A stretch of DNA of 22,208 nt, from NCBI GenBank assembly GCA_043805855.1, contig JAZDHP010000044.1:1-22208 (forward strand). Direction: 5' to 3'. This stretch comes from Candidatus Micrarchaeota archaeon. GTDB taxonomy: Archaea; Micrarchaeota; Micrarchaeia; Norongarragalinales; UBA8480. Position 1 is the stretch's first letter, and every line of letters begins with the position of its first letter. Shown in pieces: positions 2,956-21,726 of this stretch. The notes below the pieces were generated by a model. That model saw only the letters and a program-made list of their open reading frames with translations, did no database searches and had not been told where the DNA came from. The position numbers were made by a program, and so were the translations under genes.

Positions 2956-5424
2956 CTAAACTGGATCCCAAGCTGCAAGGAAGCCAATCAACTCATCAGC
3001 TGCTGCTTGTGTATCTGCTGCAGTTCTTCCTGCGACACAAAGCTTGTTGCCTTCAACAGTGACAACTGCGCCTTCAGCGCCTTCGTCGCCGAGTTTAGCA
3101 CATTCAGTCATACTGGCTGCAACTGTGTTAACCCACGGTCCACCAATCACGATTTGTGGTTGAGCTGCGTCTGCCTCAGAGTCGAGGACAACTAACGGCT
3201 TGGTTGCTGTGTTCAACTGAGTAACAACTGCGCTACCAGAAGCAATTGCTGCGCCTGATGGAATTGTAATCTTAGTTCCACCAACGTCGCATGCTGTGCC
3301 AGTTGTGCAAGTTATTGTCGTAGTGCCAGCAGTCATGTTAGTGCCTTCAGTGCTCAAAACGTACTGTGCGCGGCCAACTGTATTTGCGTACTTTACAATA
3401 AATTCAGTTCCCGCTGGGGCAGTTGCTACATAGCTTCCACGTGGGGAGTAGTAAGGTACATCTCCAAAGAAGTTTGCAGTTTGGTCAGCTGCTGATCTTG
3501 CAATAGTCGTATAGTTGACCTTTCCAGTAGTTGTTACTGATGGACCATCGTATAAGTGAAGGTCTGTAGATGCGGTAGTACCACCTGCGGTTGTACCAAA
3601 AGCAGCGTAGACTGTAAAGTTACCGTCAACTGCTACTGAGCCACTGTCGTTCAAGATTTCCGGAATAGTGATGTTCATTGAAGAGGTGTTTCCAGGAATG
3701 TTAAATGTTCCTCGAGTGAAGTTACCATCCATAGTTGCGTTAATATACACGTAGGTATCTGAGCCAGTGCCAGGGTAGTAAAACTTAACCGCAGCTGCAT
3801 AACTTTTAACTCCCATTCCTGAATCTGTAGTGGTTCGATATGTTTGTGGCGCATCTGTTGCAGAAGATGAGTTTGTCCAGACACTACTTGCGTTTTGGTA
3901 AACAAAGTAACCAACATATTTACTACAAGCGCCGCCTACATCAGCAGTTCGGTTCTTAACCAAGAGCCTTACCTTGCTAGCTTGGTCGTTTCCAAATTTA
4001 AATGCATCAGCTCTAGAAGCAATAAACTCTACACCAGTATAGTCGCAAGTGACTGTAGTATTGTACCCAATTTGCATGGAATCTAAGTTACCAAAGGTAA
4101 GCTTCAACTCAGTATAATCTGTATCCTTTAAAGTTGATCCCTTATATGTCAATTTGTATCCGGGTGCGCCTTTTATAATGTCTAAAGAATCACCTGGGTT
4201 CAATGAAGTTGTTTCAAGATCGTTTCCAATTTGAATCCTAGTTATAGATGGAGAAGCAGATACGTTACTCGTTGTAAAGTACGTTTGCCACTTGCCATAA
4301 ATTGATTCGTCAATTGATGCGTTCTGTGATAATTTAAGTGAACCAGTTGCGAAGATAATTCTTGCAGTGCTATTTCCACTTTGAGTGTAGAACGAGTCTG
4401 GCACTTGTACGTAAAAGCTACCTAAAACTTTAACTGGCGCAGCTCCCGAAGTTACAGTAACGGTTTCAGCTGTTCCAGCTGCATTGGTTAAAACTAAGCC
4501 AATTGAAGATACTGAAGAAGATCCTTGCGGTGCTGACATTGAGTCAAGTTTAACTTTGTGTCCTTCTGGAGTTGTTATTACTGTTCCAACTGGAATAATT
4601 TGATCAACCGACGCTTTGGATAGTGTAAGTGTACTAATTGTATTTGGAGTAGTTGCAGTTGATTCAGTTATATGAGTAACTAAATAATCTGTACCTAAAA
4701 AGCGTACTTTTACTCCTGCACGATCTAGCCTCGAGTTTGTCGGGCATGCCCCAAGTCCATAAGTTGTGTCAAGACATGACGGTAAACCAGGGCTAAAGGT
4801 TAGAGAATACCATGCTGCTGGATTTCTCAATACATACTTATCAGCAGACGAGCTATAATCAGCCTGCCCAAAGAGATTTACGTATTCGCGTGAAGTTAAA
4901 GATCCAGAATACTTGCCCTTAGTATCAACAGTTCCATCTTTTACTAACGCAGTAGTTGTTGAGGAAATTTCCTTTACATTCATGTTTGCAAGATTGGAAT
5001 TATATGACGGTCTCGTGCCAGTTATATTATAAACTGTATCTGCACTGCTGTCAACTCTGTCGTCTCCAAAGAGTGATGTGAATCCATATGTTCCTGCTGG
5101 GACAGCGTTTGCTGCATTTGTAACTGAAACAGATACTGTTTGATTTGCAGTTGTTCCAGTTGTTGCTGCCGGCGTTGCTGTTGCGCTAGTTGTGTATGCT
5201 TTGTTTGCGATTGCAGCTGCGATGTTGCCTGCTGCGATTGCGTCAGACACGTCTGCTGCTGAACCGAGTACGATTTGTACTTGTGGCGTTCCGTTCGAGT
5301 ATAAACTCGGTACATAATTGCCGAGTCCTTCGTCGACGGTGACCGCTGCTGCTGCAAATGCTGTGCCGATTAAAGCTGCACCTGCTGCGATTGCGGCTAT
5401 TTTCTTGACATTTAAACTCTTCAT
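2956..5424 (-). CDS. Major S-layer protein (Methanococcales/Thermococcales-like S_layer_N and S_layer_C termini)
   Basis: Signal peptide MKSLNVKKIAAIAAGAALIG, N-terminal IVLGSAADVSDAIAAGNIAAAI, C-terminal PLVVLDSEAD...IVIGGPWVNTVA...VAGRTAADT. Thr/Ser/Ala-rich, with a GAGGTG SD motif. Confidence 0.92.
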   Translation of the reverse strand: MKSLNVKKIAAIAAGAALIGTAFAAAAVTVDEGLGNYVPSLYSNGTPQVQIVLGSAADVSDAIAAGNIAAAIANKAYTTSATATPAATTGTTANQTVSVSVTNAANAVPAGTYGFTSLFGDDRVDSSADTVYNITGTRPSYNSNLANMNVKEISSTTTALVKDGTVDTKGKYSGSLTSREYVNLFGQADYSSSADKYVLRNPAAWYSLTFSPGLPSCLDTTYGLGACPTNSRLDRAGVKVRFLGTDYLVTHITESTATTPNTISTLTLSKASVDQIIPVGTVITTPEGHKVKLDSMSAPQGSSSVSSIGLVLTNAAGTAETVTVTSGAAPVKVLGSFYVQVPDSFYTQSGNSTARIIFATGSLKLSQNASIDESIYGKWQTYFTTSNVSASPSITRIQIGNDLETTSLNPGDSLDIIKGAPGYKLTYKGSTLKDTDYTELKLTFGNLDSMQIGYNTTVTCDYTGVEFIASRADAFKFGNDQASKVRLLVKNRTADVGGACSKYVGYFVYQNASSVWTNSSSATDAPQTYRTTTDSGMGVKSYAAAVKFYYPGTGSDTYVYINATMDGNFTRGTFNIPGNTSSMNITIPEILNDSGSVAVDGNFTVYAAFGTTAGGTTASTDLHLYDGPSVTTTGKVNYTTIARSAADQTANFFGDVPYYSPRGSYVATAPAGTEFIVKYANTVGRAQYVLSTEGTNMTAGTTTITCTTGTACDVGGTKITIPSGAAIASGSAVVTQLNTATKPLVVLDSEADAAQPQIVIGGPWVNTVAASMTECAKLGDEGAEGAVVTVEGNKLCVAGRTAADTQAAADELIGFLAAWDPV

Positions 5425-6105: not shown

Positions 6106-6462
6106 CTACTTTTTAGCTTTGCTTTTCGGCGCCGGCAACTTTACGTAGTAGACGTCTGAATCAGTTCTTAGGATTACGGGGTCGCCGCGGAATAGCGCGG
6201 GTATGTTTAGCTCGTATGAACCTGGCTCTATTACTCTTATATTTTCCGGGTCGTCGAGATTTATCACAACTGGCTTTTCCTTGCTGAGCTCAATTAGTTG
6301 TTCAGTTATAAGTATTTCAGTAACTTTGGCAGTTGGCAGGCACATTGCTGGCGCGTCGGTTTTAATGAAGTAGAAAATTCTCGAGCCGCAAGTGCACCCT
6401 TTTAGAATTGCTTCTGACTGGTCAGGGTAGCTTTTGTTACATTTCACGCAGGAATGAGGCAT
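6106..6462 (-). CDS. oapC: Zn-ribbon origin-associated protein OapC (DUF2072-like)
   Basis: MPHSCVKC...ILKGCTCGSRIFYF N-terminus and ENIRVIEPGSYELNI C-terminal motif. Lies near oapB and oapA. Confidence 0.88.
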   Translation of the reverse strand: MPHSCVKCNKSYPDQSEAILKGCTCGSRIFYFIKTDAPAMCLPTAKVTEILITEQLIELSKEKPVVINLDDPENIRVIEPGSYELNIPALFRGDPVILRTDSDVYYVKLPAPKSKAKK

Positions 6463-6483
6463 AACAAAAATGAGAGCCAGAAG

Positions 6484-6491
6484 TTTAAATA
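6484..6491 (-). promoter_or_regulatory. TATA box for a leaderless oapC transcript
   Basis: TATTTAAA on the minus strand, 21 nt upstream of ATG 6462, with no SD motif. Confidence 0.5.
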
Positions 6492-6493
6492 AG

Positions 6494-6569
6494 CATAAGG
6501 CAAAGCCTTATGAATTAGACACAAAGCTAAGGGCTTTGTGCTGAAGGCCTGCGGCGACTGAGCGGCCTT
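6494..6569. repeat. Three tandem inverted repeats
   Basis: CATAAGGC-aaa-GCCTTATG (6494-6512); CACAAAGC-taagg-GCTTTGTG (6520-6540); AAGGCC...GGCCTT (6544-6569). Confidence 0.85.
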
Positions 6570-6606
6570 TTAAAGAGATAACGCTATCGGCGGCACTGTA
6601 AAGCAA

Positions 6607-7020
6607 TTAGCGAATCTTTGTCAAATCGCCGTTTATTATAATGGGGCGCGTTGCTTCGATTTCGCTCTTGTAAAATTGAATCTCTGGAATTGGATTCAAG
6701 AGAAAGATTTTCTTGTTTAAAACGTGTGCGAAGCCGATTTCGAGGAACGTGTTACCGCCAATGTAGTTTTTCACCCCGCGGCGATCATAATTTAGTACAA
6801 GTATGGCATCGCTTAGTTTGATTTTTTCCCAGAATTCGCGCATCGCGTCTTTTTCGTTTTTGTGATAAAGGGTTAGCTTTTCTTTTTCGCTTTCTGTTTT
6901 GCCAACGTAAGCGTCGGAAAATCCAGACACAAAAACAACGTGCCCCATTTCCTCAAGTTGCTTTTTAGTTTCAAGCATTTTCTCAGTGAAGACCATACTA
7001 GTGCAAATAGCGATTTTCAT
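6607..7020 (-). CDS. Nucleoside 2-deoxyribosyltransferase (NDT)-like Rossmannoid protein
   Basis: N-terminal strand KIAICTS, then SDAILVLN...YIGGNTFLEIGFAHVLNKKIF, matching the NDT pattern D-x(n)-G-T-x-x-E-x-G-x-A-x(3)-K with a candidate catalytic Glu. Confidence 0.65.
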   Translation of the reverse strand: MKIAICTSMVFTEKMLETKKQLEEMGHVVFVSGFSDAYVGKTESEKEKLTLYHKNEKDAMREFWEKIKLSDAILVLNYDRRGVKNYIGGNTFLEIGFAHVLNKKIFLLNPIPEIQFYKSEIEATRPIIINGDLTKIR

Positions 7021-7029
7021 TTTTTATTA

Positions 7030-7245
7030 TCACTTTAGCATTGGTGCGGCTTCTAGGTTTTTTATGTTTCGTAACTCGGCGATTTTGGCTTTGCCATTTG
7101 GCATTTCAAGTAACCGATCGTAAAACGCAAGTGCTTTTTGAAACTGCGCATCTATGAACTGGGAATGAATGCTTTTCCACTCGCCGTTGCTTTCCCTGAC
7201 ATGTTTAGCCCAGCGTTCAATTTGTTCTATTCTGCTTGGATCCAT
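7030..7245 (-). CDS. Small helical hypothetical protein, candidate partner or antitoxin of the nucleotidyltransferase
   Basis: 71 aa (IERWAKHVRESNGEWKSIHSQFIDAQF). Overlaps the upstream gene by 29 nt and ends 9 nt before the next start codon. Confidence 0.7.
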   Translation of the reverse strand: MDPSRIEQIERWAKHVRESNGEWKSIHSQFIDAQFQKALAFYDRLLEMPNGKAKIAELRNIKNLEAAPMLK

Positions 7246-7804
7246 TATTTAGCCTCAGTTTAATTATTAGTTGTTTTATACTATTTATCTTTTCTTCGTT
7301 TATTTGTCCTTCAAACACCCGTCTTAAATGTAATGCGTCTTCAAGATCCTTGTCACTTTTTAACAGTTCTTCTTTAAACGCAAGGTTATACTCAACTGAA
7401 CTGAACCAAACAGGTAGGCCAGTAATGGGAATTTTTATCCTTTCTTTTAACTGCATTTCATCTAGGATATCTTTAGCCATTTTTAGCTCTATTTCGGGCA
7501 ATACTTGATTTTTCAATATATAGCGAACTGGCAAATTGTCAGCCAAGTAAAGAGTATAAATGTGAGTTGGATCATTTGATTGCACGCATTCGAACCCTTC
7601 TTTTTCAAGGGCGTAATGCAAAGTTAGAAAGTCTGAAAGGGAAATTTTTTGCGTTATTATGTCAATGTCTTCAGTCCCTCGACTTCTTCCAGTTGAAATT
7701 GCCACGTACCCAGATACAACTATATACTCACAGTGACGTTCAAGTACGCTGCAGAATTTTATGCATACGTCGTCTAAAATGTTCCTGTCGCTTATGAGCC
7801 GCAT
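7217..7804 (-). CDS. Pol-beta superfamily nucleotidyltransferase (DUF2204/AbiEii-like)
   Basis: YIVVSGYVA...GRSRGTEDIDII (G-x-x-A...R-x-T-x-D-x-D), a third acidic strand PEIELK, and a C-terminal K...KDLEDA helix characteristic of this clade. Confidence 0.75.
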   Translation of the reverse strand: MRLISDRNILDDVCIKFCSVLERHCEYIVVSGYVAISTGRSRGTEDIDIITQKISLSDFLTLHYALEKEGFECVQSNDPTHIYTLYLADNLPVRYILKNQVLPEIELKMAKDILDEMQLKERIKIPITGLPVWFSSVEYNLAFKEELLKSDKDLEDALHLRRVFEGQINEEKINSIKQLIIKLRLNNGSKQNRTN

Positions 7805-7848
7805 AAATTACTTAGGATAATTAGATTAAAAATACCACAAGCAGCAGT

Positions 7849-8199
7849 TTATTTTTGCGTTAACAGATTAAGCTTATTGGGGTCTCTTTTAATTTGCTTT
7901 ACGAGTTTCGACGGACCGACTACAGTTAACCCACTTGTTTTGCCGCCAAGTAGTTTTACAAGTTGGGATTTGAGGTCAAGCGTCGTGCTGCCTAGTGTTG
8001 CTACTTCTATTCCTGCGAAGTTTTTGTCAACTTGTTCCATTGTTAGCTTAATTAGTTGTGTTTCTTCAGCTGGAGAAAGTGGTTCTTCTAGTACGATTAT
8101 TTTGTCTCCTTTTTTCACGATATTGAGAATGTGAGTTAGCTTTTCGTCGTTTTGCTTGTCTTGCATTGCTTTGGATGATAGAAATTCAATTGCAACCAT
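7849..8199 (-). CDS. oapB: Origin-associated protein OapB (DUF2073-like)
   Basis: IIVLEEPLSPAEETQLIKLTMEQV...FAGIEV...GLTVVGPS...IKRDP. Directly downstream of oapA. Confidence 0.9.
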   Translation of the reverse strand: MVAIEFLSSKAMQDKQNDEKLTHILNIVKKGDKIIVLEEPLSPAEETQLIKLTMEQVDKNFAGIEVATLGSTTLDLKSQLVKLLGGKTSGLTVVGPSKLVKQIKRDPNKLNLLTQK

Positions 8200-8209
8200 A
8201 TGTTTATAA

Positions 8210-8830
8210 TCACACTTTTTTCGCTACTTCTTCATATAACTTAGGCATGTTTTCGCCGGTTAACGCAGATACGGGTACGACGGAGTGCTGTGGAAACGCG
8301 TCTTTGATTTTGTCAGGGCGGGCTTTTTTCAAGTCCATTTTGTTTGCAACTATTATCACTGGTATTTTGCGCGCTTCAAGGTTTGCAAGAATTGTTATGT
8401 TCACCTGAGTATAGGGGTCTTTAGTTGCGTCCATTACTACAAACGCTGCGTCGACGTGTTCAAGCCACTTTATTGCTTCGATTATTCCTTTTGTCGCTTC
8501 TTTTGCTCGCTGCTGTGCCTCGTCTTTCGAAAGCCCATGTTCAATGAACTCGCGGTAATCTACCTTCGTTGCAATTCCAGGCATGTCGAGGATATTCATC
8601 GTTAGTAGTTTGCCGCCGGCTTTTATTGCAACGCGTTCTTTTTTCTGTACTTCTCGCGTTTCGTGAGGTATTTCTGAAACGTTGCTTAGTGGTTGGCCTG
8701 TCCAGTCAATGCAAATGCGGTTAGCGATGCTTGATTTGCCGGCGTTTACTGGCCCGTAGATGCCTAGTGATATTGATTTGCGTGAGTTGAAAAATCCTAG
8801 AAAAAAATTAAGTAACTTGCGGAAAGGCAT
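8210..8830 (-). CDS. oapA: Era-like GTPase, origin-associated protein OapA
   Basis: G1 GPVNAGKS, G2 IPHETRE, G3 DMPG, G4 NKMD, G5 SAL, plus the family motifs AKEATKGIIEAIKWL and DPYTQVN. Confidence 0.93.
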   Translation of the reverse strand: MPFRKLLNFFLGFFNSRKSISLGIYGPVNAGKSSIANRICIDWTGQPLSNVSEIPHETREVQKKERVAIKAGGKLLTMNILDMPGIATKVDYREFIEHGLSKDEAQQRAKEATKGIIEAIKWLEHVDAAFVVMDATKDPYTQVNITILANLEARKIPVIIVANKMDLKKARPDKIKDAFPQHSVVPVSALTGENMPKLYEEVAKKV

Positions 8831-11896: not shown

Positions 11897-12310
11897 TCAC
11901 TGTGTTTGAGTTTCTGGTGGTACTTCTAGTTCAATTTCTGCAATTATTTCATCTAATTCAGCGCGTTGCTTTTCTAAAACTTTCTGAATGCGTTTTATGC
12001 GTTTCTGGTTTAAAGCAATTTCGCGGTACTTGCGGCTAGCGGTGTTGAAATGTTCGCTTGAAAGCGTAAAGTATGGCTCTTTGTCCATTGTTTGCGAAAT
12101 GTCAGAAAGAATTTCACCCAAGAGAACATTCGCACCTTCTTTGACGTCGCGTTTAATTTGGTGTTCTGACTTCAAGTTACTTTTAATAATTTTTACAACA
12201 CGTGCGTTTGGAAACGGTAAATGTTCAGATTCTTCGTCTTCAACTTCTTCTCCTTCAACTGCTTCAACGTTTTCAGCTGGCGGCTGTTGTGAAGTTTGTT
12301 CGTCGGTCAT
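11897..12310 (-). CDS. Histone-fold protein with acidic N-terminal tail and C-terminal coiled coil
   Basis: LPFPNARVVKIIK (alpha1), QIKRDVKEGANVLLGEILSDIS (L1 and alpha2), TLSSEHF (L2 and alpha3), then an amphipathic helix. ATG 12310 is preceded by AGGTGG. Confidence 0.78.
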   Translation of the reverse strand: MTDEQTSQQPPAENVEAVEGEEVEDEESEHLPFPNARVVKIIKSNLKSEHQIKRDVKEGANVLLGEILSDISQTMDKEPYFTLSSEHFNTASRKYREIALNQKRIKRIQKVLEKQRAELDEIIAEIELEVPPETQTQ

Positions 12311-12393
12311 AAAATATATCCCACCTGTAAAGTACAATTTATAGAAAAATAGATATTAAGTTAAGGAAAAGCCCGGTTTTTAACCTATCGCAT

Positions 12394-13023
12394 TTACCCC
12401 TTAACAAGAAGTAAGAATACCTTCCTTTTCCTTGCGTTTTCCGGATTATCAGTTATAACCGTTGTTTTGAAGCCAACGCTTTTGAACACGCGTCCAACTT
12501 GCATTGCTTCCCCTTCATCGCGCGGGTAAAATTGTACAACCGCTTTTCCACCAGTTTTCAAGTGCTTCCAGAACTCCCGTGCAACTTTTTTCACTTCTCC
12601 AGCGCCAAGCGCCGAAACCCACTGCAATACAGATATTGAAACAATGCCATCATATAGACTGGCAAATGGAAATTTGCGCACGTCGCCTCGTTTTGCGTCA
12701 AAGCCTTTTTTTCTACAAAGAGTTACAAAAATTGGAATAACATCAAAGGGAAACACTTCATAACAGAGTTCGCTTAAAATAACAGAAGAGAACCCTGCGC
12801 CACAGCCGGCGTCTATAACCCGCGAGCCAGCTGGAAGTTGCATTAACTCAACCGCTCGGAGGGTTAAACCTTCTTGAATTCTTCGCATTGAATTACTAGC
12901 AGCGTATCGCTTCGCCTCCGCGGCAGTGTAAAACTGCTCGACTGTCTTCTCATCCTCTGGACGAACGTGGAAAGATTTCCATTCGCTTTTTTCAGGTTTT
13001 TCAAGTTTTTCAGGTAATAACAA
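12394..13023 (-). CDS. Class I SAM-dependent methyltransferase, Bud23/WBSCR22-like (putative SSU rRNA m7G methyltransferase)
   Basis: RPE...FY...EAKRY...IQ..LTLRAVEL, DAGCGAG, SISVLQW, GGKAVVQFYP and D.PE..K.K.FL.L. TTG start with GGAGG 8 nt upstream. Confidence 0.85.
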   Translation of the reverse strand: MLLPEKLEKPEKSEWKSFHVRPEDEKTVEQFYTAAEAKRYAASNSMRRIQEGLTLRAVELMQLPAGSRVIDAGCGAGFSSVILSELCYEVFPFDVIPIFVTLCRKKGFDAKRGDVRKFPFASLYDGIVSISVLQWVSALGAGEVKKVAREFWKHLKTGGKAVVQFYPRDEGEAMQVGRVFKSVGFKTTVITDNPENARKRKVFLLLVKG

Positions 13024-13054
13024 TTACATCTCCTCCGTCGATGACTCGCCATAA

Positions 13055-14083
13055 TCAGATTATGGCGATGTCTTCAAACCTCACTCCAAACATCTTCGGG
13101 AAATATAACCCTGGCTCTATTGTAAAACACATTCCCTTTTCTGTTTTTTCTATATCATCAACTCGGCGCCAACCATCGTGCACCTCGAGTCCAACACTGT
13201 GCCCTAAACCCAGCCCAACATCGCGATAAGTATTCTGCGAAAAACCATATTCTTTCAACACAGCCAACGCGGTTTCGCTTGCCTTTTTGCCGCTTTTCTC
13301 GCGCTCAGCAACGTACTGTGCTTGCTTTTGCGATTCCCTTACTGCCTCAAGCGCATCTTTAGTGAATTTATCACTTCCTTCGTAAACCGTTGTTGTATAA
13401 TCGCCGCAGTAAAACTCACACCGACACCCAACATCGATAAGCAATGGAGTTTTCAAATCTAGTTTTGCGCTTGACGCTGAGTTGTGAAATACTGCACTGC
13501 GCTCGCCGCTTTGCACAATTGGCGTAAACGCATCGAGGCTAGAGTTTAGTTCCCTTGCGTGTGCTTCGATTTTGCCAGCAACTTGATTTTCCGTTAAACC
13601 AGCTAAATTTTCTTCCAGAGTACGTGCGACGGCGTTTTTAGTTATGCTCTGCGCTTTTTTTATCAACTTAATTTCTTCTGTGTCCTTTTTCTCGCGGATT
13701 TGCAACAGTTGCTGCGTGAAGTTCACTTTTTCGTAACTGGATTTCGCGAATGCGAATAAACCAAGTAGGTCACTTCTGCTGTCAAGCGCAACTTTTTGCG
13801 GTTTTATCGCGTCGACTTCTTGTTTTAGTTTTTTACGCCAATCTTTGAAAGGCAAAACGTTGAAAAAATAAGGAAGATCTGCTGCCTGCATTGTCGAAAA
13901 CATCATTGCGTTTTCTTTTGTGATTAACAAAACGCTTGGAAACGCACTATCGCCAGAATAGTAATACCCATTTGCGTCAAAGCGGTTGCCGCCGCCAAGC
14001 ACAACTGCGTCAACGCTGTGCTCTTGCATTTTTTGCCGTAGTTTTTCCAAACGCTGCGAGTAGTTGAATTTCATTGTTTTCAC
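13055..14083 (-). CDS. pepP: Xaa-Pro aminopeptidase/prolidase (M24B)
   Basis: All five metal ligands present: IDVG, GDYT, GHSVGLEVHD, TIEPGLY, GVRFED. Start may be ATG 14074. Confidence 0.92.
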   Translation of the reverse strand: MKTMKFNYSQRLEKLRQKMQEHSVDAVVLGGGNRFDANGYYYSGDSAFPSVLLITKENAMMFSTMQAADLPYFFNVLPFKDWRKKLKQEVDAIKPQKVALDSRSDLLGLFAFAKSSYEKVNFTQQLLQIREKKDTEEIKLIKKAQSITKNAVARTLEENLAGLTENQVAGKIEAHARELNSSLDAFTPIVQSGERSAVFHNSASSAKLDLKTPLLIDVGCRCEFYCGDYTTTVYEGSDKFTKDALEAVRESQKQAQYVAEREKSGKKASETALAVLKEYGFSQNTYRDVGLGLGHSVGLEVHDGWRRVDDIEKTEKGMCFTIEPGLYFPKMFGVRFEDIAII

Positions 14084-18555: not shown

Positions 18556-19407
18556 TCATAAAAGTGCAAGCGCAAGAAAAGCAACAACACCGAACAGCAA
18601 AGCGAAAAGCGTGTAGTTTCTACACTGTTTCAACATTACTACTTCTTGGCTTTTAAGCGCTTTGTAAATCGTTAACAATAATAACAAAACACAAGGCACT
18701 AGGAAAACAAAGTACGTAAGAGAAAAACTGCTTAGTAGCGGCACAATAGACAACGCGATTGCAGCTAAGATGAAAACCGCAGATAGCACAACAGTTGCCT
18801 TTGCGCCGATTAACATTGGAAGAGTAGTTGCACCTATTTTCTTATCGCCTTTGACGTCGCGCAGCGTTATTAACAACTCGCGACCGACCCCAACGAGAAA
18901 CGCAATTGAACAAATTAAAACAACTAATTGCACAACAACTGGAGAAACTGCTAGATTTCCATAGAGAAACGGCGCTGCCATTGACAGCGCGATAAACGCG
19001 TTTCCCAACAACGGGAGTTTCTTCAGAATTGGATCATATGCTATTGAAAGCACAACGTAGACAAGCGCCAGCGCGAACACAAGTAAATTGATAAGATATG
19101 TAAGCGCAAGGCCAACTACGAATAGAACAAACGCAGCATAAAGCGCGTGGCTCTTGGCAATTGCCCCGTTTACAAGTGGACGATCTTTTCTCGCATTCGC
19201 TTTATCGGTTTCGTAGCCAAAATAATCATTCAACGCAAACGCAGCTAGCGTTATCAACGCTGGGCCAAGCGCAGGAAAGAGAAGAGAAAGCGAAAAGCTA
19301 CGTACGACGAGAAGCTGTCCAACAATCACGCCGATAAAAGTAATCAACGCGTGTTCAGTGCGGAACAGCGAATGCCAATTTAAAATTATTTCTGAAAGAT
19401 TTTTCAT
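18556..19407 (-). CDS. UbiA-family prenyltransferase, DGGGP synthase-like
   Basis: NDYFGYETDKAN..DRPL..G, LKKLPLLGN and RE.....RDVKGD...GATTLP; multi-pass membrane protein. Confidence 0.85.
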   Translation of the reverse strand: MKNLSEIILNWHSLFRTEHALITFIGVIVGQLLVVRSFSLSLLFPALGPALITLAAFALNDYFGYETDKANARKDRPLVNGAIAKSHALYAAFVLFVVGLALTYLINLLVFALALVYVVLSIAYDPILKKLPLLGNAFIALSMAAPFLYGNLAVSPVVVQLVVLICSIAFLVGVGRELLITLRDVKGDKKIGATTLPMLIGAKATVVLSAVFILAAIALSIVPLLSSFSLTYFVFLVPCVLLLLLTIYKALKSQEVVMLKQCRNYTLFALLFGVVAFLALALL

Positions 19408-20018
19408 TCTAAGTTAAACCTGTAAATAGATTGGTTCTTTAAACGCTTTACATTTGTAAACCCTGCATTTTTCATACTCCCCGTAGCATGAGAAACGCAC
19501 TGGTCATACCATTCGCCAAATACGCGAATTGGCACCTCTCGAGGTAAAGATAATTGCTTTTGCACTTCACTTGCAACATTATGCGGCGTAGAATCTAACA
19601 CTAACAATCGTCGTCCAAGTTTACTGTGCGCAAATTTAATTAAACTCTCTTGCAGGGAATCTGTTTTATTCGTAACGTTAACTTCGTCTCGTAAAATTAC
19701 TAAAACCGCATGCGGAGTTTTTGAAATGCGCTTTATTTTATTACGATATAACCGATCAATCACTTCTTGTTTTGGAACTACATATTCATTATCTGCAGGC
19801 AACCCCATAGCCAACCTTGGCTTCGCCATTTCTATTGCAATATTCTTTAATCTAGCTCGCGGCTCAACTGCATTAAATTCATGAGTTTCTCTTTTAGCCA
19901 ATGAAACTGCCTCTGGGTATGCAAAATTGCTAGCAATAGCAAAATGTGGGTGCACCAGCACGTGGAGTTCAGTTACTTCGCGCTTTTGCGGTTTTCCATT
20001 TGTCGTCTTTTCCGGCAT
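19404..20018 (-). CDS. Hypothetical protein, possibly isochorismatase/cysteine hydrolase-like fold
   Basis: 204 aa ORF with LHVLVHP and IRVFGEWYDQCV; ATGA overlap with the UbiA-family gene. Confidence 0.6.
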   Translation of the reverse strand: MPEKTTNGKPQKREVTELHVLVHPHFAIASNFAYPEAVSLAKRETHEFNAVEPRARLKNIAIEMAKPRLAMGLPADNEYVVPKQEVIDRLYRNKIKRISKTPHAVLVILRDEVNVTNKTDSLQESLIKFAHSKLGRRLLVLDSTPHNVASEVQKQLSLPREVPIRVFGEWYDQCVSHATGSMKNAGFTNVKRLKNQSIYRFNLE

Positions 20019-21183: not shown

Positions 21184-21726
21184 ATGGTCGTGGCGCGTAA
21201 ATACATAAGAGAAGCGGCAGTTGGTTTACATGCAGAAGTTAGCTTTGAACCAGTTTCAGATGGAAAGAGACTTGAATTTACTTTTTCACTTACCCAGCGG
21301 CTTGGAAAAAGATCCGCTTTTGAATTTTTCGTTCCCTTGACAGATGCACAAGTGCGAGAAATTGCAACTTATCGCCAGCGAGTGCCTGAAAACCGTGCTC
21401 TTGCACGCGCGGCAGTAACTTTGGATAACGAAACGCGAACTTTAACTTGGCGTTCTTTCTACCCGCATGGTTTAGAAAGGCAAACTGACCTCGAAACAGC
21501 ACACGCGCCAATTAGACGGGGAATCGCAACTGCACTTCACTATGCAATTACAAAGTTTCTTGCGGACAATTACGAACTCCACCACATTAGACACGATAAC
21601 CGCATGCCCCTGGAACGAGAAGAGCATTTACGCAAAATGGGAATCAACCCGCGTGCGCACTATAAAATCACACAATACTACGAAATTGTTAAACGCTACG
21701 CTGAGAGAAAATTAGTTACTTCTTGA
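21184..21726 (+). CDS. Hypothetical protein with a GNAT motif A-like segment
   Basis: IRRGIATAL resembles the acetyl-CoA-binding motif R-x-x-G-x-A, and LRKMG resembles the motif B helix. Starts 10 nt after cdc6. Confidence 0.55.
   Translation: MVVARKYIREAAVGLHAEVSFEPVSDGKRLEFTFSLTQRLGKRSAFEFFVPLTDAQVREIATYRQRVPENRALARAAVTLDNETRTLTWRSFYPHGLERQTDLETAHAPIRRGIATALHYAITKFLADNYELHHIRHDNRMPLEREEHLRKMGINPRAHYKITQYYEIVKRYAERKLVTS

What the first reader, a model, noticed from the sequence alone, without database searches (positions are those of the whole stretch)
12394..13023. Eukaryote-like Bud23/WBSCR22 rRNA m7G methyltransferase in an archaeon
Seen, against the yeast Bud23 sequence as I recall it: RPEDEKTVEQFYTAAEAKRY versus RPEELAPPEIFYNDSEAHKY; IQEGLTLRAVEL versus IQAKMTLRALEL; DAGCGAG versus DIGCGSG; SISVLQW versus SISAIQW; GGKAVVQFYP versus GGKFVAQFYP; DNPENARKRKVFLLL versus DDPESKKNKKYYLVL. 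The basic eukaryotic C-terminal extension is absent. Known: Bud23-Trm112 forms m7G1575 in yeast 18S rRNA and is needed for 40S maturation; it is generally regarded as a eukaryotic biogenesis factor. Inference: this archaeon may place m7G at the equivalent 16S P-site position, which bears on the origin of eukaryotic ribosome assembly.
Basis: partly seen in the sequence, partly recalled or inferred. Interest (0 to 1): 0.78.

Follow-up and report, generated by a model that had tools for sequence, protein, structure and literature searches.

The report
Short archaeal Bud23-type rRNA methyltransferase
A small-genome archaeon encodes the complete catalytic domain of Bud23, the eukaryotic enzyme that methylates one guanine at the ribosome's P site and that specialist papers say archaea lack, without the eukaryotic tail and with no partner protein found, which predicts an rRNA mark not yet tested in these organisms.

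Summary
Confirmed. The 209-aa minus-strand ORF at 12394-13023 is a full-length Bud23-family methyltransferase domain in a Micrarchaeota genome (probably order Norongarragalinales). Its best PDB matches are all Bud23/BUD23, by sequence, archaea-only profile, Foldseek and VIA-align (Z 24.9 vs 20.2). A eukaryote-only profile picks it first in the genome (122 vs 43 bits). It keeps the Bud23 signature; yeast R27 is not kept. The eukaryotic tail is missing and no Trm112 was found in the 92% complete genome. The family is patchy: 39/61 genomes of its order, 0/176 of other orders, 32/151 Asgard, 12/101 Iainarchaeota, 9/251 Pacearchaeota-phylum and 0/301 Bathyarchaeia-phylum genomes. Eukaryotic copies form one clade outside the archaeal ones; their sister group is unresolved. 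Best reading (0.65): a stand-alone enzyme that places m7G on the 16S guanine equivalent to yeast G1575; activity is untested. Papers of 2015-2018 say archaea lack Bud23. A 2021 supplementary table lists it for Asgard but not DPANN, and IMG auto-names some archaeal members. This scan found the same family before on other DNA (e1-7544872, e1-7763436, e1-7100009, e1-5453667).

The parts
12394..13023 (-). Bud23-family class I SAM-dependent methyltransferase ORF, 209 aa, catalytic domain only
13032..13036 (-). Shine-Dalgarno-like GGAGG, 8 nt upstream of the TTG start
   Evidence: read; complementary CCUCC at the 16S 3' end
12955..12981 (-). Residues 15-23: short aromatic/basic archaeal N-terminal extension (W-x-x-x-x-V) leading into the RPE motif shared with eukaryotes
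   Evidence: RPE in 100% of 39 Micrarchaeota rows; extension modelled at low confidence (pLDDT 62-65)
12844..12963 (-). Residues 21-60: Bud23-specific N-terminal helices (R21 P22 E23, Y32, E36, Y40, I49, Q50, R56); S45 stands in place of yeast R27
12793..12813 (-). Residues 71-77: SAM-binding motif I (DAGCGAG)
12682..12699 (-). Residues 109-114: strand beta-3, the Trm112-facing strand in eukaryotes; K111 stands where eukaryotic rows are hydrophobic
12619..12639 (-). Residues 129-135: post-beta-4 signature SISVLQW (yeast S116-W122)
12523..12534 (-). Residues 164-167: QFYP signature (yeast Q157-P160)
12406..12450 (-). Residues 192-206: basic beta-6/beta-7 hairpin; the protein ends three residues later, with no tail

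Best explanation
The gene encodes an archaeal member of the Bud23/BUD23 family, inherited vertically within its order, that works as a single-domain enzyme. SAM binds at D71/G73/G75/G77, D94 and D114 (conservation shown; function from class I methyltransferase knowledge). The N-terminal helices and the basic C-terminal hairpin dock on the head (3' basal subdomain) of an immature small subunit (inferred). The guanine equivalent to yeast G1575 / E. coli G1338 (G000:C5:62655, minus strand; equivalence recalled) flips into a pocket lined by Y40, I49, S131, W135 and Y166 and is methylated at N7 (inferred from Bud23; pocket assignment recalled). Without the tail it cannot hold helix 18 immature as eukaryotic BUD23 does (inferred from PMC9723619). 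With no Trm112 and a polar beta-3 face it probably acts alone (inferred). Its patchy distribution suits a dispensable fine-tuning mark rather than an essential assembly checkpoint (inferred).
For: Top PDB hits are only Bud23/BUD23: single sequence 66-89 bits vs 30; archaea-only profile 123-139 vs 70; Foldseek ranks 1-8, E 3e-17 to 2e-14 vs 3e-10; VIA Z 24.9, rmsd 1.8, 190 aligned vs Z 20.2. Eukaryote-only profile on 10,225 G000 ORFs: this ORF 122 bits, next 43. It keeps 23 of 46 eukaryote-diagnostic columns, against 1-10 for 58 generic methyltransferases and 16-18 for the remodelled Loki paralogue (columns were defined on the eukaryotic and generic rows). Y40, Q50, S131, Q134, W135, Q164, Y166 are 100% in 24 tailed eukaryotic rows and 92-100% in 39 Micrarchaeota rows. 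One copy per genome and mostly all-or-none by genus. Relatives sit beside small-subunit genes: eS25 in 41 Loki-type loci (one lineage), uS7 in 3 Odin-type loci and two genes from it in 1 more, aIF2-alpha/Nop10/eS27 in L013. The target guanine is present.
Against: No activity or modification data exist here. The target guanine is universal, so its presence does not discriminate. Yeast R27 (R83%/H17% in eukaryotic rows) is A or S in Micrarchaeota. Identity to Bud23 is only 27-30%. The window's own neighbours are not translation genes. The IQ-TREE run with distant outgroups gave the family-versus-generic split zero length and support, and FastTree support was 0.66. No m7G at this position was known in archaeal 16S rRNAs as of PMC5372719 and PMC6144793. 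The genome is 92% complete, and the weakest Trm112 controls scored no better than the best G000 hit. Most sampled archaea lack the gene.
Confidence: 0.65

Rival explanations
1. Same family and a guanine-type pocket but another RNA target or product: m7G elsewhere in 16S or 23S rRNA or in tRNA, or another methyl mark. The RNA-contacting face would have been rebuilt (R27 lost, basic residues at 47-48, archaeal N-terminal extension).
For: R27 not kept and an archaea-specific extension is present. The family has changed its pocket at least once: the second Loki copy has N/F for Q134/W135 and E for Q164. T. kodakarensis puts m7G in the 23S P loop with an unrelated enzyme (PMC12124282), so archaeal m7G sites are not predictable from eukaryotes.
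Against: This copy groups with the signature-keeping subfamily, not the remodelled one. Similarity covers the non-core helices and hairpin that are Bud23-specific.
Confidence: 0.2
2. It acts mainly as a small-subunit assembly chaperone that binds the head and methylates little or not at all, as catalytically dead Bud23 does in yeast and human cells.
For: The presence of Bud23, not its activity, is what eukaryotic 40S assembly needs (PMC4472018; PMC7758049).
Against: SAM-site and pocket residues are nearly invariant. The tail that holds helix 18 is missing. The gene is lost in whole genera. It shows no exclusion with Nep1/Emg1, which shares the site in yeast (18 of 39 carriers and 7 of 22 non-carriers have it).
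Confidence: 0.08
3. A generic small-molecule or protein methyltransferase whose likeness to Bud23 is only that of the class I fold.
For: Pfam and NCBIfam give only generic Methyltransf_11/25 hits. One tree does not support family monophyly.
Against: Reciprocal best profile hits with a wide gap. Against the eukaryote-only profile, 73 archaeal locus proteins score 87-165 bits and 58 generic ones at most 60. Shared N- and C-terminal signatures.
Confidence: 0.05
4. Eukaryotic contamination, or a recent transfer from a eukaryote.
For: Patchy distribution.
Against: The contig is archaeal (S-layer, PCNA, Cdc6, OapB/C). GC 44% versus 41% for window and genome. Neighbours are shared with relatives. Eukaryotes form one clade at 100/100 that excludes all archaeal rows.
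Confidence: 0.02

Closest known systems
Bud23 (S. cerevisiae; PDB 4QTT/4QTU, 7WTN) and human BUD23/WBSCR22 (6G4W, 7WTS-7WTW), with Trm112/TRMT112: 18S rRNA m7G1575/m7G1639 methyltransferase
   Same: Whole catalytic domain, rmsd 1.8 A over 190 residues; RPE, SISxxQW, QFYP and C-terminal hairpin signatures; SAM-site residues.
   Different: No C-terminal WBS_methylT tail; no Trm112 found in the genome; polar beta-3 face (K111); R27 replaced by S; short archaeal N-terminal extension; absent from most sampled archaea; 27-30% identity.
BUD23 orthologue calls in Asgard archaea, Birikmen et al. 2021 (PMC8481954, Table S10)
   Same: Lists BUD23 in the Asgard repertoire (unfiltered and abundance-filtered columns) and in the unfiltered Eury and TACK columns.
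   Different: Not listed for DPANN. Dropped under the strictest filter. The main text never names it (0 occurrences). Table S5 places it in the LUCA stratum in two of three filterings, which suggests generic methyltransferases among the calls (my inference).
Second, remodelled Bud23-like paralogue of Loki-type Asgard archaea
   Same: Same family and length.
   Different: SYNF/AYNF for xLQW, EFYP for QFYP, no RPE; separate clade at 100/100. The window's protein is not of this type.
TK0008, archaeal 23S rRNA P-loop m7G methyltransferase (PMC12124282)
   Same: Archaeal rRNA guanine-N7 methylation.
   Different: UPF0020/Trm14-like enzyme acting on 23S rRNA; the paper does not mention Bud23.
Generic Methyltransf_11/25 enzymes (PF08241, PF13649), including archaeal Trm112 partners such as Hvo_0019 (6F5Z)
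   Same: Class I fold; Z 17-20.
   Different: Lack the Bud23 terminal signatures; 1-10 of 46 diagnostic columns.

Membership tests
Bud23/BUD23 (WBSCR22) | Class I SAM-dependent fold with intact SAM-binding residues | tested here: met
   pLDDT 93.8 model; D71, G73, G75, G77, D94, D114 kept
Bud23/BUD23 (WBSCR22) | Reciprocal best match to Bud23 over the whole catalytic domain | tested here: met
Bud23/BUD23 (WBSCR22) | Guanine-pocket signature (yeast Y22, I31, S118, Q121, W122, Y159; role of these residues recalled, source paper not held) | tested here: met
   Y40, I49, S131, Q134, W135, Y166
Bud23/BUD23 (WBSCR22) | Basic rRNA-contacting pair K21/R27 (role recalled) | tested here: inconclusive
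   K21 kept as R39; R27 is S45; R47 and R48 lie next to it
Bud23/BUD23 (WBSCR22) | One clade with eukaryotic Bud23 to the exclusion of generic methyltransferases | tested here: inconclusive
   FastTree: 197 family rows split cleanly from 58 generic rows, stem 0.55, support 0.66. IQ-TREE quick: same split, zero length and support
Eukaryotic Bud23-Trm112 holoenzyme | Basic C-terminal extension (PF12589) | tested here: not met
   85 archaeal locus proteins have a median of 1 and at most 25 residues after the domain
Eukaryotic Bud23-Trm112 holoenzyme | Trm112 partner encoded in the genome | tested here: inconclusive
   None found in G000 and no short stand-alone frame among 28 matches in 61 genomes of the order; the genome is 92% complete and the profile is weak on distant forms
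Bud23/BUD23 (WBSCR22) | Substrate guanine present in SSU rRNA | tested here: met
   GGAAU context in G000 16S; universal, so not discriminating
Bud23/BUD23 (WBSCR22) | Forms m7G at the G1575-equivalent position | not testable with these tools
   needs biochemistry or modification mapping
Bud23/BUD23 (WBSCR22) | Required for small-subunit maturation | not testable with these tools
   patchy distribution argues against an essential role
Remodelled Loki paralogue | xYNF and EFYP in place of xLQW and QFYP | tested here: not met

The most novel reading that the evidence does not exclude
Bud23 is an archaeal invention. A tail-less, Trm112-independent form methylates the P-site gate guanine of 16S rRNA in several DPANN lineages, Asgard copies retain or gained the Trm112 partnership (hydrophobic beta-3 in Loki rows; Trm112-like genes in 3 of 4 Asgard carriers tested), and eukaryotes added the helix-18-binding tail that turned a dispensable modification enzyme into an assembly checkpoint. 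The Micrarchaeota protein would then be a soluble, partner-free minimal Bud23 and the first archaeal SSU m7G writer.
Probability: 0.4. Interest if true: 0.75.

Novelty: new variant of a known kind. Interest (0 to 1): 0.57.

Why it matters
Three specialist papers read here state that Bud23 or its mark is absent from archaea (PMC4472018, PMC5372719, PMC6144793). A signature-complete family across Micrarchaeota, Iainarchaeota, Pace/Woesearchaeota, Aenigmarchaeota and Asgard archaea moves the enzyme's origin before eukaryotes or implies ancient transfer. It separates three parts of the eukaryotic factor (catalytic domain, Trm112 dependence, tail) and so allows a direct test of which came first, the mark or the assembly role. 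It predicts a specific modification at a named nucleotide. The weight is reduced because Asgard BUD23 is already tabled (PMC8481954 Table S10), IMG auto-annotates some members with the Bud23 name, and nothing is shown biochemically.

Tried and rejected
Trm112 in G000: the only PF03966 hit is the TFIIB zinc ribbon. A profile of 18 Iainarchaeota Trm112 proteins on 16,832 ORFs gave a best E of 6e-4, a 129-aa zinc-ribbon protein with hydrophobic C-terminal segments and no Trm112 C-terminal motif; 6 of 6 control loci were found at E 5e-8 to 2e-3.

Nep1/Emg1 replacement: no association (18/39 vs 7/22, Fisher p 0.30, kin not independent). eS25 link: not found in G000, so that neighbourhood is a Loki feature.

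Sister group of eukaryotes: neither eukaryotes+Loki-A (p-AU 0.31) nor eukaryotes+Micrarchaeota (0.30) is rejected, and neither is in the best tree. A 94-row AU test did not finish and was dropped.

No Rfam match in the window; no phage match in 50,697 records. No NCBIfam equivalog reached its cut-off.

Literature: ten searches; 'Asgard'+'BUD23' gave 0 papers. The structure paper of Letoquart et al. 2014 is not held.

No complex prediction was run: the genome offers no partner and Bud23-Trm112 is a textbook pair. No reads were laid, so expression is untested. Halobacteriota, Methanobacteriota and Thermoplasmatota genomes could not be sampled for lack of a handle.

Full report
Observation. Window 12394-13023 is an intact 209-aa ORF on the minus strand with a TTG start and a GGAGG 8 nt upstream. 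Pfam and NCBIfam give only generic methyltransferase hits and no WBS_methylT tail.

Host. The contig is archaeal: S-layer, PCNA, Cdc6-type ATPase, OapB/OapC. The genome G000 is 1.03 Mb, 92% complete. All 6 named proteins among the 26 closest hits are from Micrarchaeota, and one family member is labelled Norongarragalinales, so that order is likely but not shown. GC is 44% against 41% for window and genome. The order Xaa-Pro peptidase, this gene, histone-fold-like protein, coiled-coil protein recurs in L001, L003 and their re-fetched copies. Contamination or recent transfer is therefore rejected.

Family assignment. Against PDB sequences the five best of 8 hits are Bud23/BUD23 (66-89 bits; next 30). 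A profile of 26 archaeal rows gives 123-139 bits; next 70. The AlphaFold model (pLDDT 93.8) returns Bud23 at Foldseek ranks 1-8 and human BUD23 first among 48,161 chains (Z 24.9, rmsd 1.8, 190 aligned; next Z 20.2). Reciprocally, a profile of 34 eukaryotic BUD23 domains ranks this ORF first among 10,225 G000 ORFs, 122 versus 43 bits. Of 46 columns fixed in 24 tailed eukaryotic rows and rare in 58 generic methyltransferases, the protein keeps 23; Micrarchaeota rows keep a median of 21, Loki-A 23, the second Loki copy 16-18, generic enzymes 1-10 (the columns were chosen on the eukaryotic and generic rows). Kept residues include R21-P22-E23, Y32, E36, Y40, Q50, R56, S131, Q134, W135, Q164, Y166, P167, D192, P194, K201. 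The clear departure is yeast R27, here S45. Against this reading, trees with distant outgroups are weak: FastTree separates 197 family rows from 58 generic rows with support 0.66, and IQ-TREE quick on 94 rows gives that split no length or support.

Distribution. Full-length matches: 15 of 201 genomes of the phylum, all in the window's order (15 of 25) and 0 of 176 in other orders; ten further genomes had only partial generic hits. In a larger draw of the order, 39 of 61, mostly all-or-none by genus. Asgard phylum 32 of 151, 21 of them with two matches. Phylum of an Iainarchaeum record 12 of 101; of a Pacearchaeota record 9 of 251; of a Bathyarchaeia record 0 of 301 (at most 10 candidates scored per genome, no internal positive); of record L062 0 of 55. 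Phylum names come from record titles. Named protein hits add Aenigmarchaeota, Odinarchaeum, Helarchaeota, Hermodarchaeota and Nanoarchaeota; no bacterial, TACK or euryarchaeal name appeared among the listed full-length hits, but most hits are unnamed and only the best 120 were shown per call. The genome-contig scan covered 18 of 64 parts; 34 of its 80 loci are family members, all with archaeal titles.

Phylogeny within the family. In a careful 40-row tree without outgroup (rows picked by me for diversity from the 94), eukaryotes form one clade (100/100, stem 0.93). Micrarchaeota form a clade at 81/81 and join Iainarchaeota, Pace/Woesearchaeota and Loki-A at 94/91. Odin, Aenigm and the second Loki copy lie on the other side. 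Asgard rows fall in at least three places. Neither eukaryotes+Loki-A nor eukaryotes+Micrarchaeota is rejected (p-AU 0.31 and 0.30). The origin of the eukaryotic gene, and loss versus transfer among archaea, remain open.

Tail and partner. Eighty-five archaeal locus proteins end a median of 1 residue after the domain, whereas 25 of 101 scanned representative hits carry PF12589 (101 of 147 new hits were scanned). In eukaryotes the tail holds helix 18 immature (PMC9723619, passages), and Trm112 covers a hydrophobic surface through a beta-zipper with strand beta-3 (PMC5372719, section 2.5). No Trm112 was found in G000. In 61 genomes of the order, 25 had PF03966 matches; all 28 matches lie in frames of 121-432 aa, and those I read were TFIIB, Trm112-like fusions or one membrane-type zinc ribbon (for three loci my script printed the wrong frame). 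In Iainarchaeota the same search finds Trm112 in 37 of 101 genomes, mostly in short frames, but in only 1 of 12 carriers against 36 of 89 non-carriers (p 0.05, kin not independent). At position 111 of beta-3, mean hydropathy is 3.7 in eukaryotic rows, -2.4 in Micrarchaeota and 4.1 in Loki-A; 3 of 4 Asgard carriers tested have a Trm112-like hit. The review warns that the zipper depends on main-chain bonds, so this is suggestive only.

Gene context. The window's neighbours are uninformative. Relatives are often near small-subunit genes: head-to-head with eS25 in 41 Loki-type loci including re-fetched duplicates (one lineage), adjacent to uS7 in 3 Odin-type loci, beside aIF2-alpha/Nop10 and eS27 in L013, near L7Ae in L168. 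I ran no background control for translation-gene density, and many other loci show no such neighbour.

Mechanism. Shown: fold, SAM-site and signature conservation, absence of the tail, presence of the target guanine in the G000 16S rRNA. From established knowledge: Bud23 methylates N7 of G1575 in the 3' basal subdomain of the head (PMC7758049, passages), with the base inside its pocket. Inferred: the archaeal protein does the same on a late 30S precursor, alone. Recalled, not from a call: the roles of Y22/I31/S118/W122/Y159 and K21/R27, and the G1575 = E. coli G1338 equivalence. I put family membership at about 0.9 and the same mark at 0.65.

What is in print. PMC4472018 (passages), PMC5372719 (passages and two sections) and PMC6144793 (passages) say Bud23 or its mark is not found in archaea. 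PMC8481954 (passages and supplement parts) lists BUD23 for Asgard and, unfiltered, for Eury and TACK, but not DPANN, and its text does not name it. IMG names some short, tail-less members '18S rRNA (guanine1575-N7)-methyltransferase'. Ten searches found no paper that describes archaeal Bud23; the library lacks most subscription papers, and unread supplements may bear on this. Earlier notes of this scan report the same family; they are not independent evidence.

Verdict. Real and correctly read: a new variant of a known kind. It is notable for ribosome-biogenesis specialists and directly testable, but partly anticipated in a table and without functional data. Interest 0.57.

Noticed in passing
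G000:C5:62463-64899 (L082:1501-3937, minus strand): The genome's 16S rRNA gene is 2437 nt against a 1478-position model. It holds two insertions: about L082:2570-3170 with a 177-aa LAGLIDADG ORF (L082:2567-3100, PF14528 E 4e-9), and an AT-rich one at about L082:2085-2410 with no ORF of 60 aa. They look like rRNA introns; the boundaries are approximate.
   Followed up: partly
window 13047-13067: Perfect 10-bp inverted repeat with a 1-nt spacer across the stop codon of the upstream Xaa-Pro peptidase gene, just before this gene's ribosome-binding site. An in-frame ATG-TAA precedes the TTG start.
   Followed up: no
window 11897-12337: 146-aa protein with an acidic N-terminus and a weak histone-fold hit (PF00808, E 6e-4), directly downstream and conserved next to or near the gene in L001, L002, L003. 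In L014 a canonical archaeal histone follows the Bud23-like gene.
   Followed up: partly
window 6106-8830: Origin-associated cluster (GTPase, OapB, OapC) interrupted by three small genes at 6607-7804, one with a weak nucleoside 2-deoxyribosyltransferase hit and two with no Pfam hit; possibly an inserted cassette.
   Followed up: no
window 2956-5424: 822-aa S-layer-like protein (PF05124 at both ends) with a long unannotated middle.
   Followed up: no
P0029 and P0034: P0029 (412 aa) is a tandem of two Bud23-like domains from the two different archaeal subgroups; P0034 (382 aa) fuses a Bud23-like domain to a second methyltransferase domain.
   Followed up: no
L157 (G293) and L159 (G298): The two Loki-type paralogues lie in tandem here, between eS25 and, in L157, uS10, which suggests a local duplication origin.
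   Followed up: partly
L171-L174, L176, L177, L181, L184: Several genomes of the order encode 309-402 aa proteins with an N-terminal Trm112-like zinc knuckle; such fusions to methyltransferases are described in PMC5372719.
   Followed up: no
window 19404-20018 and 21184-21726: Two ORFs (204 and 180 aa) flanking the Cdc6-type gene with no convincing Pfam or NCBIfam match.
   Followed up: no
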